64,000 nucleotides of DNA from the human T2T-CHM13v2.0 reference genome, Homo sapiens, in NCBI RefSeq assembly GCF_009914755.1, contig NC_060933.1, one strand, 5' to 3'. Made by a program: the position numbers and the translations under genes. A model generated the notes under the pieces. It was not told where the DNA came from, did no database searches, and saw only the letters and a program-made list of their open reading frames with translations. Below are positions 17,134-26,199 of the stretch, piece after piece; position 1 is the first letter of the stretch, and every line of letters starts with the position of its first letter.

Positions 17134-18148
17134 TTTTGTACTTATTTGCTCTACCTGTGGTATATTTATTTGACTTCCCAACCTCTGGGTCTTAATTATT
17201 TGTTTTTCTTTTTTAGTAATTTATTTCTGATAGTATTGAAGTTATGGCCAAAAAAAGTCACACACATGCGATCACCAAATCCATTTTTCTAAATTTGGAT
17301 TTTATCATGAATCTACTCAATTTTCAAAAGTCTTCCCTTCATCCCATTTTTTAAATTGTATTTATCTATATTGTCCTCTGGTCCCTGTCCATGTGCATAT
17401 TCAATATTTGCATATCTACCTTAACATCATGGAATCTAATACCTGCATTTTCCATTATCATGATCCTGTGTATTTTGCCACATTTCCTACTTCTTCCCTG
17501 TGAATTGACCTGTTCTTCTTCTCTCCCCTCTCCTCCATCTCTGACCCCAAGCACCCTCCACTGTTTCAATTTCTTCAGTAATTGACACCTCACAGGTAAA
17601 TTCCTGTTAAACTAAATTTAGATCTAATAACAGGGAACTTCTTTTTCTTTCCTTTAAATGTTATATAGCAGTATTTGTAGGACTTACATGTGTTTCAAAG
17701 AAAACTAGGATATGAACACGATTTTGAGTCATTTTTCATGAATGCAGTTGCTGCTCCACAAAACTGTTTGCTCTAAAGCAGGATGGAGTATAAATTGGGC
17801 CTTTCTTTTTATTTTATTATTATTATACTTTAAGTTTTAGGGTACATGTGCACAATGTGCAGGTTAGTTACATATGTATACATGTGCCATGCTGGTGTGC
17901 TGCACCCATTAACTCGTCATTTAACATTAGGTATATCTCCCAATGCTATCTCTCCCCCGACTTCCCACACCCCACAAGAGTCCCCAGAGTGTGATGTTCC
18001 CCTTCCTGTGTCCATGTGTTCTCATTGTTCAATTCCCACCTATGAGTGAGAACATGCGATGTTTGGTTTTTTGTCCTTGCGATAGTTTACGGAGAAGGAT
18101 GATTCCCAATTTCATCCATGTCCCTACAAAGGACATGAACTCATCCTT

Positions 18149-21100
18149 TTAAATGGCTGCATAGTATTCCATGGTGTATATGAGCCACATTTTCTTAATC
18201 CAGTCTATCATTGTTGGACATTTCGCTTGGTTCCAAGTCTTTGCTATTGTGAATAGTGCCGCAATAAACATACGTGTGCATGTGTCTTTATAGCAGCATG
18301 ATCTATAGTCCTTTGGGTATATACCCAATAATGGGATGGCTGGGTCAAATGGTATTTCTAGTTCTAGATCCCTGAGGAATCGCCACACTGACTTCCACAA
18401 GGGTTGAACTAGTTTACAGTCCCACCAACAGTGTAAAAGTGTTCCTATTTCTCCACATCCTCTCCAGCACCTGTTGTTTCCTGACTTTTTAATGATCGCC
18501 ATTCTAACTGGTGTGAGATGGCATCTCATTGTGGTTTTGATTTGCATTACTCTGATGGCCAGTGATGGTGAGCATTTTTTCATGTGTCTTTTGGCTACAT
18601 AAATGTCTTCTTTTGAGAAGTGTCTGTTCATTTCCTTCGCCCACTTTTTGATGGGGTTGTTTGTTTTTTTCTTGTAAATTTGTTTGAGTTCATTGTAGAT
18701 TCTGGATATTAGCCCTATGTCAGATGAGTAGGTTGCAAAAATTTTCTCCCATTCTTTAGGTTGCCTGTTCACTCTGATGGTAGTTTCTTTTGCTGTGCAG
18801 AAGCTCTTTAGTTTAATTAGATCCCATTTGTCAATTTTGGCTTTTGTTGCCATTGCTTTTGGTGTTTCAGACATGAAGTCCTTGCCCATGCCTATGTCCT
18901 GAATGGTAATGCCTAGGTTTTCTTCTAGGGTTTTTATGGTTTTAGGTCTAACGTCTAAGTCTTTAATCCATCTTGAATTAATTTTTGTATAAGGTGTAAG
19001 GAAGGGATCCAGTTTCAGCTTTCTACATATGGCTAGCCAGTCTTCCCAGCACCATTTATTAAATAGGGAATCCTTTCCCCATTGCTTGTTTTTCTCAAGT
19101 TTGTCAAAGATCAGATAGTTGTAGATATGTGGTGTTATTTCTGAGGGCTCTGTTCTGTTCCATTGATCAATATATCTGTTTTGGTACCAGTACCATGCTG
19201 TTTTGGTTACTGTAGCCTTGTAGTATAGTTTGAAGTCAGGTAGTGTGATGCCTCCAGCTTTGTTCTTTTGGCTTAGGAATGACTTGGTGATGCGGGCTCT
19301 TTTTTGGTTCCATATGAACTTTAAAGTAGCTTTTTCTAATTCTGTGAAGAAAGTCATTGGTAGCTTCATGGGGATGGCATTAAATCTATAAATTACCTTG
19401 GGCAGTATGGCCATCTTCATGATATTGATTCTTCCTACCCATGAGCATGGAATGTTCTTCCATTTCTTTGTATCCTCTTTTATTTCATTGAGCAGTAGTT
19501 TGTAGTTCTCCTTGAAGAGGTCCTTCACATCCCTTGTAAGTTGGATTCCTAGGTATTTTATTCTCTTTGAAGCAATTGTGAATGGGAGTTCACTCATGAT
19601 TTGGCTCTCTGTTTGTCTGTTATTGGTGTGTAAGAATGCTTGTGATTTTTGTACATTGATTTTGTATCCTGAGACTTTGCTGAAGTTGCTTATCAGCTTA
19701 AGGAGATTTTGGGCTGAGACGATGGGGTTTTCTAGATATACAATCATGTCATCTGCAAACAGGGACAATTTGACTTCCTCTTTTCCTAACTGAATACCCT
19801 TTATTTCCTTCTCCTGTCTAATTGCCCTGGCCAGAACTTCCAACACTACGTTGAATAGGAGTGGTGAGAGAGGGCATCCCTGTCTTGTGCCAGTTTTCAA
19901 AGGGAATGCTTCCAGTTTTTGCCCATTCAGTATGATATTGGCTGTGGGTTTGTCATAGATAGCTCTTATTATTTTGAGATACGTCCCATCAATACCTAAT
20001 TTATTGAGAGTTTTTAGCATGAAGGGTTGTTGAATTTTGTCAAAGGTCTTTTCTGCATCTATTGAGATAATCATGTGGTTTTTGTCTTTGGTTCTGTTTA
20101 TATGCTGGATTACATTTATTGATTTGCGTATATTGAGCCAGCCTTGCATCACAGGGATGAAGCCCACTTGATCATGGTGGATAAGCTTTTTGATGTGCTG
20201 CTGGATTCAGTTTGCCAGTATTTTATTGAGGATTTTTGCATCAATATTCATCAAGGATATTGGTCTAAAATTCTCTTTTTTTGTTGTGTCTCTGCCTGGC
20301 TTTGGTATCAGAATGATGCTAGCCTCATAAAATGAGTTAGGGAGGATTTCCTCTTTTTCTATGGATTGGAATAGTTTCAGAAGGAATGGTACCAGTTCCT
20401 CCTTGTACCTCTGGTAGAATTCGGCTGTGAATCCATCTGGTCCTGGACTCTTTTTGGTTGGTAAGCTATTGATTATTGCCACAATTTCAGAGCCTGTTAT
20501 TGATCTATTCAGAGATTCAACTTCTTCCTGGTTTAGTCTTGGGAGAGTGTATGTGTCAAGGAATTTATCCATTTATTCTAGATTTTCTAGTTTATTTGCG
20601 TAGAGGTGTTTGTAGTATTCTCCGATGGTAGTTTGTATTTCTGTGGGATCGGTGGTGATATCCCCTTTATCATTTTTTTTGCGTCTATTTGATTCTTCTC
20701 TCTTTTCTTCTTTATTAGTCTTGCTAGCAGTCTATCAATTTTGTTGATCCTTTCAAAAAACCAGCTCCTGGATTCATTAATTTTTTGAAGGGTTTTTTGT
20801 GTCTCTATTTCCTTCAGTTCTGCTCTGATTTTAGTTATTTCTTGCCTTCTGCTAGCTTTTGAATGTGCTTGCTCTTGCTTTTCTAGTTCTTTTAATTGTG
20901 ATGCTAGGGTGTCAATTTTGGATGTTTCCTGCTTTCTATTGTGCACATTTAGTGCTATAAATTTCCCTCTACACACTGCTTTGAATGTGTCCCAGAGATT
21001 CTGGTATGTTGTGTCTTTGTTCTCATTGGTTTCAAAGAACATCTTTATTTCTGCCTTCATTTCGTTATGTACCCAGTAGTCATTCAGGAGGAGGTTGTTC

Positions 21101-21855
21101 AGTTTCCATGTAGTTGAGTGGTTTTGAGTGAGTTTCTTAATCCTGAGTTCTAGTTTGATTGCACTGTGGTCTGAGAGACAGTTTGTTATAATTTCTGTTC
21201 TTTTACACTTGCTGAGGAGAGCTTTATTTCCAACTATGTGGTCAATTTTGGAATAGGTGTGGTGTGGTGCTGAAAAAAATGTATATTCTGTTGATTTGGG
21301 GTGGAGAGTTCTGTAGATGTCTATTAGGCCCGCTTGGTGCAGAGCTGAGTTCAATTCCTGGGTATCCTTGTTAACTTTCTGTCTCGTTGATCTGTCTAAA
21401 GTTGACAGTGGGGTGTTAAAGTCTCCCATTATTATTGTGTGGGAGTCTAAGTCTCTTCGTAGGTCACTCAGGACTTGCTTTATGAATCTGGGTGCTCCTG
21501 CATTGGGTGCATATATATTTAGGATAGTTAGCTCTTCTTGTTGAATTGATCCCTTTACCGTTATGTAATGGCCTTCTCTGTCTCTTTTGATCTTTGTTGG
21601 TTTAAAGTTTGTTTTATCAGAGACTAGGATTGCAACCCCTGCCTTTGTTTGTTTTCCATTTGCTTGGTAGATCTTCCTCCATCCTTTTATTTTGAGTCTA
21701 TGTGTGTCTCTGCACGTGAGATGGGTTACCTGAATACAGCACACTGATGGGTCTTGACTCTTTATCCAATTTGCCAGTCTGTGTCTTTTAATTGGAGAAT
21801 TTAGTCCATTTACATTTAAAGTTAATATTGTTATGTGTGAATTTGATCCTGTCAT
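18149..21855 (-). pseudogene. L1 ORF2 (endonuclease/reverse transcriptase), broken
   Basis: [14 protein letters not shown] start and FADD RT motif. Split by a frameshift near 20680 and a TGA at 20207, with a premature stop at 18149 (MEYYAAI*). Confidence 0.95.
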
Positions 21856-24808: not shown

Positions 24809-24859
24809 TTCAATTCAGTGCCACATATAGTAGTACGATTGAAAGTAATCTCATTTCAA

Positions 24860-26199
24860 CTATCTGATCTTTGACAAACCTGACAAAAAGAAGAAATGGG
24901 GAAAGGATTCCCTACTTAATAAATGGTGCTGGGAAAACTGGCTAGCCATATGTAGAAAGCTGAAACTGGATCCCTTCCTTACACCTTATACAAAAATTAA
25001 TTCAAGATGGATTAAAGACTTAAACATTAGACCTAAAACCATAAAAACCCTAGAAGAAAACCTAGGCAATACCATTCAGGACATAGGCATGGGCAAGGAC
25101 TTCATGTCTAAAACACCAAAAGCAATGGCAACAAAAGCCAAAATTGACAAATGGGATCTAATTAAACTAAAGAGCTTCTGCACAGCAAAAGAAACTACCA
25201 TCAGAGTGAACAGGCAACCTACAGAATGGGAGAAAATTTTTGCAACCTACTCATCTGACATAGGGCTAATATCCAGAATCTACAATGAACTCAAACAAAT
25301 TTACAAGAAAAAAACAAACAACCCCATGAACAAGTAGGCAAAGGATATGAACAGCCACTTCTCAAAAGAAGACATTTATGCAGCCAAAAGACACATGAAA
25401 AATTGCTCACCATCACTGGCCGTCAGAGAAATGCAAATCAAAACCACAATGAGATACCATCTCACACCAGTTAGAATGGTGATCATTAAAAAGTCAGGAA
25501 ACAACAGGTGCTGGAGAGGATGTGGAGAAATAGGGACACTTTTACACTGTTGGTGGGACTGTAAACTAGTTCAACCCTTGTGGAAGTCAGTGTGGCAATT
25601 CTTCAGGGATCTAGAACTAGAAATACCATTTGACCCAGCCATCCCATTATTGGGTATATACCCAAAGGACTATAGATCATGCTGCTATAAAGACACATGC
25701 ACACGTATGTTTATTGCGGCACTATTCACAATAGCAAAGACTTGGAACCAAGCGAAATGTCCAACAATGATAGACTGGATTAAGAAAATGTGGCACATAT
25801 ACACCATGGAATACTATGCAGCCATTTAAAAGGATGAGTTCATGTCCTTTGTAGGGACATGGATGAAGCCAGAAACCATCATTCTCCGTAAACTATCGCA
25901 AGGACAAAAAACCAAACACGGCATGTTCTCACTCATAGATGGGAATTGAACAATGAGAACACATGGACACAGGAAGGGGAACATCACACAACAGGGCCTG
26001 TTGTGGGGTGGGGGGAGCAGGGAGGAATTGCATTAGGAGATATACCTAATGTTAAATGATGAGTTAATGGGTGCAGCACACCAGCATGGCACATGTATAC
26101 ATATGTAACTAACCTGCATGTTGTGCACATGTACCCTAAAACTTAAATAAAAAAAAGTAATGCACGAATGTTTAAGCAAATCAAATAATAAAAAAAAAT
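24860..26199 (+). mobile_element. 5'-truncated L1PA4-like LINE-1 (1.3 kb) with a short extra 3' segment
   Basis: ORF2 C-terminus (ORFs 25089-25337 and 25347-25829) plus 3'UTR. TSD taatctcatttcaa at 24846-24859 and 26200-26213. Confidence 0.96.

What the first reader, a model, noticed from the sequence alone, without database searches (positions are those of the whole stretch)
17807..26199. Two independently inserted, inverted L1s share non-consensus variants in patches: gene conversion between arms
Seen: the minus-strand L1 (arm ~17830-19120) and the plus-strand L1 (24860-26147) each have their own TSD. They differ at subfamily-type positions: 3'UTR ACACTCTGGGGACT/CATTGGGAG vs ACACAACAGGGCCT/CATTAGGAG, and GGCATTACC vs GGCAATACC. 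Yet both carry the same departures from the L1PA consensus as I remember it: GACATAGGG (K>I, 'SSDIGL'), CAACCCTTG, CATTATTGG, TATAGATCA ('DYRSCC'), AACCAAGCGAAA ('NQAKCP'), GCCATTTAAAAGG (the same premature stop 'YAAI*') and CTCCGTAAAC. Interval 25603-25867 matches the reverse complement of 18111-18375 with one mismatch, while neighbouring segments are clearly more diverged. Inference: several separate ectopic conversion tracts have homogenised the arms, i.e. concerted evolution of a 1.3-kb inverted repeat with a 5.7-kb spacer.
Basis: partly seen in the sequence, partly recalled or inferred. Interest (0 to 1): 0.8.

Follow-up and report, generated by a model that had tools for sequence, protein, structure and literature searches.

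The report
Gene conversion between two inverted L1s
Two old, dead L1 retrotransposon fragments that landed separately and head-to-head in a TRPM3 intron have since copied short stretches of sequence from one another, a well-known kind of repeat-to-repeat exchange seen here in an unusually clean example.

Summary
Arm A (minus strand, 17829-19121, 3' end of a 5.5-kb L1) and arm B (plus strand, 24857-26147, a 5'-truncated L1) each have their own target-site duplication. They are 95.7% identical overall, which is no closer than either is to unlinked L1 copies.

Two segments stand out:
- **25603-25867:** one difference in 265 bp. The closest of 42 unlinked copies differs at 8 sites.
- **25223-25327:** no differences in 105 bp.

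These segments carry variants that are rare or unique in the whole assembly:
- An 18-mer spanning the shared premature stop occurs only in the two arms.
- A 39-mer holding two other variants is exact only in the two arms; 59 other copies carry just one of the two.
- Among 69 unlinked copies, 29 of them picked because they carry one shared variant, none has more than 2 of the 8 rare variants. Both arms have all 8.

The best reading is non-allelic gene conversion between neighbouring inverted L1s. One tract is decisive, a second is strong, and a third (25882-25918) is only suggestive. Direction and date are unresolved. "Concerted evolution" overstates it, because about 70% of the arm is as diverged as unlinked copies. 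This is a new example of a known phenomenon.

The parts
17791..17806 (-). 3' target-site duplication of L1 A
   Evidence: 16-mer repeated at 23361-23376, 15 of 16 identical
17807..23360 (-). L1 A: A-rich tail (17807-17828) plus L1 body, 5'-truncated inside the 5'UTR. Only its 3' 1.3 kb (17829-19121) is homologous to B.
   Evidence: Sequence read. 96% identical to many unlinked L1 copies over 17829-19121. ORF2 C-terminal frame read.
23361..23376 (-). 5' target-site duplication of L1 A
24846..24859 (+). 5' target-site duplication of L1 B. Its last 3 bases overlap the start of L1 homology.
   Evidence: 14-mer repeated exactly at 26200-26213
24857..26148 (+). L1 B: 5'-truncated L1 3' end (ORF2 C-terminal part plus 3'UTR)
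   Evidence: It has a premature stop of its own upstream of the shared one.
26149..26199 (+). Tail of B: A-run, 33 nt of non-L1 sequence (26157-26189), then a second A-run, all inside the target-site duplication. It looks like a short 3' transduction.
   Evidence: The 33-mer is unique in the assembly at <=3 mismatches, so no source locus was found.
26200..26213 (+). 3' target-site duplication of L1 B
25603..25867 (+). Main conversion tract, B side. It holds shared rare sites 25650, 25675, 25754, 25826, 25827, 25832, including the shared premature stop.
   Evidence: 1 difference in 265 bp against a minimum of 8 for 42 unlinked copies. Unique 18-mer and 39-mer. Statistics.
18111..18375 (-). Main conversion tract, A side
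   Evidence: The single difference is at 18183.
25223..25327 (+). Second tract, B side (maximal bounds), with shared rare site 25261
   Evidence: 0 differences in 105 bp (unlinked minimum 1, median 4). The variant is in 14 of 10,529 28-mer matches, arms included. The 47-mer haplotype has 3 exact hits in the assembly, 2 of them the arms.
18651..18755 (-). Second tract, A side
25882..25918 (+). Possible third patch, B side (maximal bounds), with shared rare site 25887. It is cut off from the main tract by the diverged block 25868-25881.
   Evidence: The variant is exact in 18 of 6,779 20-mer matches. It rests on a single site, so it is only suggestive.
18060..18096 (-). Possible third patch, A side
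19122..24856 (.). 5.7-kb spacer between the arms: the rest of L1 A (to 23360), A's 5' duplication, and about 1.5 kb of non-L1 DNA
   Evidence: L1 A is colinear across the arm boundary, so the spacer is not currently inverted relative to A.

Best explanation
Two L1 elements of different age inserted independently, in opposite orientation, 5.7 kb apart in a TRPM3 intron. Each then picked up its own point mutations. Later, short stretches were copied non-reciprocally from one copy into the other (non-allelic, intrachromosomal gene conversion), carrying the donor's private post-insertion mutations with them, including a premature stop in the dead ORF2. The likely route is repair of a break or nick in one copy using the nearby inverted copy as template, resolved without crossover. 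At least two exchanged stretches exist (25603-25867 and within 25223-25327), and possibly a third small patch (within 25882-25918). The rest of the 1.3-kb homology was not homogenised.

Shown: independent insertion, the mosaic identity pattern, and the genome-wide rarity of the shared variants. Inferred: the molecular route, the number of events (several events, or one heteroduplex repaired in patches), the direction and the date.
For: 1. **Independent insertions.** The two arms have different target-site duplications. B alone has a non-L1 tail inside its duplication. Homology stops exactly at B's truncation point.

2. **Ordinary overall similarity.** A is B's best hit at 2077 bits, but unlinked copies reach 2072 (only 40 of 8,841 candidates were scored). 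B is not among the 40 scored hits for A, all of which score >=2082 bits.

3. **Mosaic pattern.** d(A,B) is 0 in 25223-25327 and 1 in 25603-25867, ranking first in both. In the other three segments d(A,B) is 11, 15 and 29, ranking 11th-41st of 43.

4. **Shared variants are rare or unique in the 3.1-Gb assembly.**
   - The 18-mer has 2 of 2 hits in the arms.
   - The 39-mer is exact only in the arms, out of 61 hits at <=1 mismatch.
   - The 25261 variant is in 14 of 10,529 matches.
   - The 25887 variant is in 18 of 6,779 matches.
   - The 47-mer has 3 exact hits of 4,111.

5. **No such haplotype elsewhere.** 69 unlinked copies carry at most 2 of the 8 rare variants. That holds even for the 29 chosen because they carry one of them.

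6. **Statistics.** Fisher p = 2.5e-6; run-length p = 0.002; clustering p = 0.003.

7. **Not hot-spot mutations.** Five of the 8 shared rare changes are transversions and none is a CpG transition.

8. **Matches what is in print.** Exchange between neighbouring Alus is reported to act within about 10 kb (passages of PMC8230782 and PMC6598467). Repair of a break in a LINE by conversion from other LINEs is cited in PMC1920257.
Against: - No outgroup species could be examined, so the state before conversion was never observed and non-reciprocity is inferred.
- The reference panel is small and biased. It has 33-42 copies, and 28 of them are the copies most similar to B among only 40 scored.
- Direction cannot be fixed. 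One marker in the main tract (25670) looks like A's lineage. However, searches showed that other apparently 'A-like' states in B (25889, 26084, 26110) exist as native haplotypes in unlinked copies, so this kind of painting is unreliable here.
- The third patch rests on one base. By my rough estimate, about 0.06 chance coincidences are expected outside the main tract (19 candidate sites times a frequency of about 0.3%). One coincidence is therefore not excluded (about 6%), while two are unlikely (about 0.2%).
- One unlinked copy on contig 7 also has the exact 47-mer of the second tract.
- Raw reads of the assembly were not checked.
Confidence: 0.88

Rival explanations
1. Common descent: both arms are offspring (or parent and offspring) of one mutated source L1, so the shared variants were inherited rather than exchanged.
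For: The two arms share 8 rare variants that no other examined copy combines. A source with only two surviving offspring would look like this within the shared segment.
Against: - The shared rare variants are not spread over the 1.3 kb. Seven of 8 lie within 265 bp (p = 0.003).
- Outside the two segments the arms are no closer than unlinked copies, and often farther.
- They differ in multi-base blocks that match alternative widespread L1 haplotypes, such as 25868-25876 and 25990-25997.
- B's non-L1 tail does not match A's flank, so B was not transcribed from A's present locus.
- B is not among A's 40 scored hits.
Confidence: 0.04
2. Coincidence: the same mutations arose independently in both copies at mutation-prone sites.
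For: Each single variant does recur elsewhere: 43 and 16 copies carry one of the two variants in the 39-mer, 12 unlinked copies carry the 25261 variant, and 17 carry the 25887 variant.
Against: - The frequencies are about 0.1-0.6% each.
- Combinations are unique to the arms.
- No copy chosen for having one variant has more than one other.
- Most of the changes are transversions, not CpG transitions.
- The segment also lacks the private differences expected from independent evolution: 1 observed against 8 or more for any unlinked copy.
Confidence: 0.02
3. Assembly or polishing artefact: reads from one arm were used to correct the other, creating false identity.
For: Nothing in the data points to this. 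It cannot be excluded because no reads or second assembly were available.
Against: - The arms are 5.7 kb apart and 1.3 kb long, well within single long reads. This rests on my own knowledge of how this assembly was made, not on a tool result.
- The identical segments are short, with sharp edges inside otherwise 4%-diverged sequence. Mis-polishing from thousands of similar L1s would import common bases, not variants unique to this pair.
Confidence: 0.03
4. Structural origin: a twin-priming inversion of one insertion, or an inverted segmental duplication.
For: Two L1 pieces lie in opposite orientation close together.
Against: - Each piece has its own poly-A end and its own pair of target-site duplications.
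- Both pieces contain the same L1 3' end, whereas twin priming gives non-overlapping parts.
- Homology stops at the L1 boundaries and does not include flanking DNA.
Confidence: 0.01

Closest known systems
Non-allelic gene conversion between neighbouring Alu elements (genome-wide analyses attributed to Aleshin and Zhi 2010 in the passages of PMC6598467 and PMC8230782 that I read)
   Same: Independently inserted retrotransposon copies within 10 kb of each other exchange short stretches, detected through shared non-diagnostic mutations.
   Different: Here the partners are L1 3' ends, not Alus. They are 1.3 kb long, inverted, and of different subfamily age. This is a single locus, not a statistical excess.
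L1 gene conversion: Burton et al. [quoted passage not shown] 2000, repair of a break in a LINE by conversion from other LINEs (seen as a citation and one sentence in PMC1920257)
   Same: L1 copies act as donors and recipients of short conversion tracts. PMC1920257 mentions tracts as short as 13 bp in cell culture.
   Different: Those are mouse or cell-culture cases, or whole-element replacements. Here a germline-fixed human example shows both partners side by side.
Concerted evolution of inverted repeats and palindrome arms
   Same: Arm-to-arm non-crossover exchange between inverted copies on one chromatid.
   Different: Palindrome arms are kept at over 99.9% identity along their whole length. 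Here about 70% of the arm stays 4-10% diverged, so the exchange is sporadic and not sustained.

Membership tests
Non-allelic (interlocus) gene conversion between dispersed repeats | The two copies arose independently rather than by duplication of the locus | tested here: met
   Two different pairs of target-site duplications; different truncation points; only B has a non-L1 tail
Non-allelic (interlocus) gene conversion between dispersed repeats | Segment(s) of much higher identity than the flanks, with sharp edges | tested here: met
   d = 0 in 105 bp and 1 in 265 bp, against 11-29 in the three other segments; permutation p = 0.002-0.008
Non-allelic (interlocus) gene conversion between dispersed repeats | Shared derived variants in the segment that other family members lack | tested here: met
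   Whole-assembly pattern scans; 69 unlinked copies carry at most 2 of 8
Non-allelic (interlocus) gene conversion between dispersed repeats | Non-reciprocal transfer with an identifiable donor and recipient | tested here: inconclusive
   Lineage markers give weak and conflicting hints. Searches show that such markers can be native to intermediate sublineages.
Non-allelic (interlocus) gene conversion between dispersed repeats | Pre-conversion state visible at the orthologous locus of an outgroup | not testable with these tools
   No primate genomes are held
L1 (LINE-1) 3' fragment inserted by target-primed reverse transcription | ORF2 C-terminal coding region, 3'UTR, A-rich tail and flanking target-site duplication | tested here: met
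   Frames read; thousands of homologous copies; tails and duplications. Subfamily names (roughly L1PA4 for A and L1PA5 for B) are recalled, not tested, because no Dfam library was on hand.
Twin-priming L1 inversion | One pair of target-site duplications around both pieces, and pieces that are non-overlapping parts of one L1 | tested here: not met
   Two pairs of duplications; both pieces contain the same 3' 1.3 kb
L1 3' transduction (tail of B) | Non-L1 sequence between two A-runs inside the target-site duplication, matching the 3' flank of a source L1 | tested here: inconclusive
   The structure is present, but the 33-mer has no second copy in the assembly at <=3 mismatches

The most novel reading that the evidence does not exclude
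The pair is a small, repeatedly used intrachromatid recombination site. Under this reading exchange has gone in both directions (the left tract from B to A, the main tract from A to B), and recently. One difference in 2 x 265 bp suggests the last few million years, if a neutral rate of about 1e-9 per site per year, recalled, is assumed. If so, the tracts, or an inversion of the 5.7-kb spacer produced by the crossover alternative, could still be polymorphic in humans or differ among African apes. That would give a natural system for measuring tract length, direction bias and crossover avoidance between diverged (96%) inverted repeats.
Probability: 0.15. Interest if true: 0.5.

Novelty: new member of a known kind. 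Interest (0 to 1): 0.3.

Why it matters
- **Dating and classifying L1s.** Exchange between nearby repeats blurs the divergence-from-consensus clock and subfamily assignment used for L1 and Alu copies. It also shows how inactivating mutations, here a premature stop, can spread between copies without retrotransposition.
- **Interpretable example.** Both partners, their separate insertion scars and the genome-wide rarity of the transferred variants can all be shown from one assembly.
- **Limits.** It does not change any general view. Nothing suggests an effect on TRPM3, since the site is deep in an intron and the hub's table lists no annotated functional element there.

Tried and rejected
1. **Source of B.** I searched for B's source through its 33-nt non-L1 tail. 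It is unique in the assembly at <=3 mismatches, so this gave no lead.

2. **Painting the arms by lineage-diagnostic sites to find more tracts and their direction.** This suggested extra patches at 26036-26059 and 26061-26118 and an 'A-like' base at 25889 in B. Whole-assembly scans then showed these states can be native:
   - B's combination at 26079-26126 is exact in 14 other copies. Its CpG-bearing form appears in many of the listed rows. The scan gave 292 hits at <=1 mismatch.
   - The haplotype linking B's 25868-25869 state with its 25889 state is common: about 29 of the 100 listed rows, counted by eye, out of 612 hits at <=3 mismatches.
   
   I therefore dropped those extra patches and treat direction as unresolved.

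3. **A third donor in the window.** An older L1 fragment at 27003-27806 (minus strand, 87% to B) has the same base as the arms at the 25650-equivalent, but none of the other rare variants it covers. I rejected it as donor.

4. **The two unlinked copies with AACCAAGCGAAATGTCC (contigs 4 and 23).** They share none of the other rare variants, so they are independent.

5. **Twin priming and inverted duplication.** Both are rejected on the target-site duplications.

6. **A second reference panel.** The panels used are therefore biased towards B's relatives.

8. **Literature.** A phrase search for L1-L1 gene conversion (five phrasings) found one paper, and only in its reference list. This library therefore holds little on L1-L1 conversion. 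That says nothing about subscription journals.

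
Full report
**What is there**

The window holds two L1 3' ends in opposite orientation.

Arm A is the last 1.3 kb (17829-19121, minus strand) of a 5.5-kb L1. That L1 runs on to 23360, where it is truncated inside the 5'UTR. 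A 16-bp target-site duplication flanks it at 17791-17806 and 23361-23376, with 15 of 16 bases identical.

Arm B (24857-26148, plus strand) is a 5'-truncated L1. A perfect 14-bp duplication flanks it at 24846-24859 and 26200-26213. Between its first A-run and its duplication, B carries 33 nt of non-L1 sequence and a second A-run. This looks like a 3' transduction. The 33-mer has no other copy in the assembly at up to 3 mismatches.

The repeat finder reports the arms as 96% and 88% complementary pieces, about 5.7 kb apart. The two insertions are therefore independent events. Twin priming and inverted duplication are excluded for these reasons:
- there are two separate pairs of duplications;
- both pieces contain the same L1 3' end;
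- homology stops at the L1 boundaries.

**Check of the observation**

My alignment confirms one mismatch (18183/25795) between 25603-25867 and the reverse complement of 18111-18375. Differences cluster right next to both edges. The quoted 3'UTR differences are present. So are the shared peptide readings, including the shared premature stop; B has a further stop of its own.

**Is the overall similarity special?**

No. Over the full arm, A and B are 95.7% identical. When the whole assembly is searched with B, A is the top hit at 2077 bits, but unlinked copies follow at 2072, 2067 and 2064 (only 40 of 8,841 first-look candidates were scored). When it is searched with A, B is not among the 40 scored hits, all of which score at least 2082 bits. 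The signal lies in local pattern, not in overall identity.

**The mosaic**

I aligned both arms with 42 unlinked copies that cover the whole arm. These were 42 of the 59 unlinked loci then held; 17 partial ones were left out. I then counted differences per segment.

| Segment | Length | d(A,B) | Unlinked copies versus B / versus A | Rank of A among B's neighbours / rank of B among A's |
|---|---|---|---|---|
| 24857-25222 | 366 bp | 11 | median 10 / 12 | 23 / 15 of 43 |
| 25223-25327 | 105 bp | 0 | minimum 1, median 4 | 1 / 1 |
| 25328-25602 | 275 bp | 15 | not restated | 11 / 41 |
| 25603-25867 | 265 bp | 1 | minimum 8 / 9 | 1 / 1 |
| 25868-26147 | 280 bp | 29 | not restated | 35 / 39 |

**Rarity of the shared variants**

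I used the 33 panel copies that had not been chosen for carrying a shared variant; 9 chosen ones were dropped. Against these, eight sites carry a base shared by A and B and seen in at most 1 of 33: 25261, 25650, 25675, 25754, 25826, 25827, 25832 and 25887. On the same criterion A has 18 private sites and B has 12.

Whole-assembly pattern scans gave the following. The tool states that its pattern counts are whole.
- The 18-mer over the shared stop has 2 hits, both in the arms.
- The 39-mer with the 25650 and 25675 variants has 2 exact hits, both in the arms. At one mismatch there are 59 more, 43 with one variant and 16 with the other, and none with both.
- The 17-mer with 25752/25754 has 4 hits, 2 of them unlinked.
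- The 28-mer with 25261 has 14 exact hits of 10,529 at <=1 mismatch.
- The 47-mer of the second segment has 3 exact hits of 4,111 at <=2 mismatches, one of them unlinked on contig 7.
- The 20-mer with 25887 has 18 exact hits of 6,779.

Across 69 unlinked loci, some covering only part of the arm, no copy has more than 2 of the 8 rare variants. Twenty-nine of these loci were fetched precisely because they carry one shared variant. Both arms have 8 of 8.

**Statistics**

- There are 54 discordant positions in 1291 bp.
- The longest perfect run is 192 bp, p = 0.0076.
- The longest run with one mismatch is 265 bp, p = 0.0022.
- Seven of 8 shared rare sites lie in one 265-bp span, p = 0.0027.
- Shared-rare versus discordant sites are 6:1 inside the tract and 2:55 outside, Fisher p = 2.5e-6.
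The genome-wide uniqueness tests do not suffer from that.

**Interpretation**

Inheritance from one mutated source would spread the shared variants over the whole 1.3 kb. It would also make the arms each other's closest relatives everywhere. Neither is seen.

Coincident mutation fails on three counts. The combinations are unique. Five of the eight changes are transversions. The tract also lacks the private differences that independent evolution would have left.

What remains is non-reciprocal copying between the two neighbouring copies after both had accumulated private mutations.
- The main tract is decisive.
- The second tract is strong. A zero-difference run of 105 bp, where about 4 differences are expected, has a Poisson probability of about 0.02 by my estimate. 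It also carries a variant at a frequency of about 0.1%.
- The third patch (25882-25918) rests on one base at a frequency of about 0.25%. I estimate about 0.06 chance coincidences outside the main tract, so one coincidence cannot be excluded.
- Whether these are separate events or one long heteroduplex repaired in patches cannot be told from one genome.

**Direction and date**

I tried to paint the arms with sites that separate the older-looking and younger-looking L1 groups. This used 17 and 29 of 50 unlinked rows; 4 rows with other states were left out.
- The main tract carries the younger-type base at 25670, hinting at A as donor.
- The second tract carries older-type bases at 25224 and 25241, hinting at B as donor.

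However, searches showed that other apparently foreign states in B are native to existing intermediate sublineages. I therefore give these hints little weight.

One difference in 2 x 265 bp, against private divergence of roughly 1.2-1.7% in the unconverted parts, says the main exchange is recent relative to the insertions. With a recalled neutral rate of about 1e-9 per site per year that is of the order of 2 million years, with a Poisson range from near zero to about 10 million. This is inference only.

**What is overstated**

'Concerted evolution of a 1.3-kb inverted repeat' is too strong. About 370-410 bp of 1291 show exchange. The rest is as diverged as, or more diverged than, unlinked copies. 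One of the seven named variants (CAACCCTTG) is an ordinary sublineage polymorphism, found in 5 of 42 copies. The difference at 26119-26120 is two different decay products of one CpG, not a subfamily marker.

**Relation to what is known**

- Passages of PMC8230782 and PMC6598467 state that exchange among Alus is strongest between neighbours within about 10 kb and depends on identity.
- PMC1920257 (passages) cites repair of a LINE break by conversion from other LINEs. It also describes one human L1 locus explained by intrachromosomal conversion.
- Burton et al. 1991 on L1 gene conversion appears only as a reference-list entry in PMC5640379.
- A 2026 preprint lists gene conversion among the processes that blur old L1 histories (PMC13192797, one passage).

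So the phenomenon is established. This locus is a clean new instance of it, not a new kind of thing. Subfamily names used in this report are from memory, because no Dfam library was available.

Noticed in passing
window 26149-26199: B ends with an A-run, 33 nt of non-L1 sequence and a second A-run before its target-site duplication, like a short 3' transduction. The 33-mer occurs nowhere else in the assembly at <=3 mismatches, so the source locus is absent or too diverged.
   Followed up: partly
window 27003-27806 (minus strand): A third, older L1 fragment lies about 850 bp downstream of B, 87% identical to B's 24886-25701. It shares the arms' base at the 25650-equivalent but none of the other rare variants it covers.
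   Followed up: partly
window 25328-25602: B's private substitutions are concentrated here: 6 of its 12 fall in 275 bp, against 1 in the first 471 bp of the arm. This is post hoc and only mildly unusual, and I have no explanation.
   Followed up: no
window 24730-24815: A low-complexity pyrimidine-rich stretch (TCC/CTT-type runs followed by ATC-type runs) lies directly upstream of B's insertion site.
   Followed up: no
window 17961-18102: NCBI's repeat mask leaves this stretch of L1 A unmasked, although it is plainly L1 (end of ORF2 and start of the 3'UTR, homologous to B).
   Followed up: no
window 62308-62581, 15991-16883, 13370-13745, 50173-50883: Further L1 fragments with 70-93% identity to arm B. 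None carries the rare variants at the sites it covers.
   Followed up: partly
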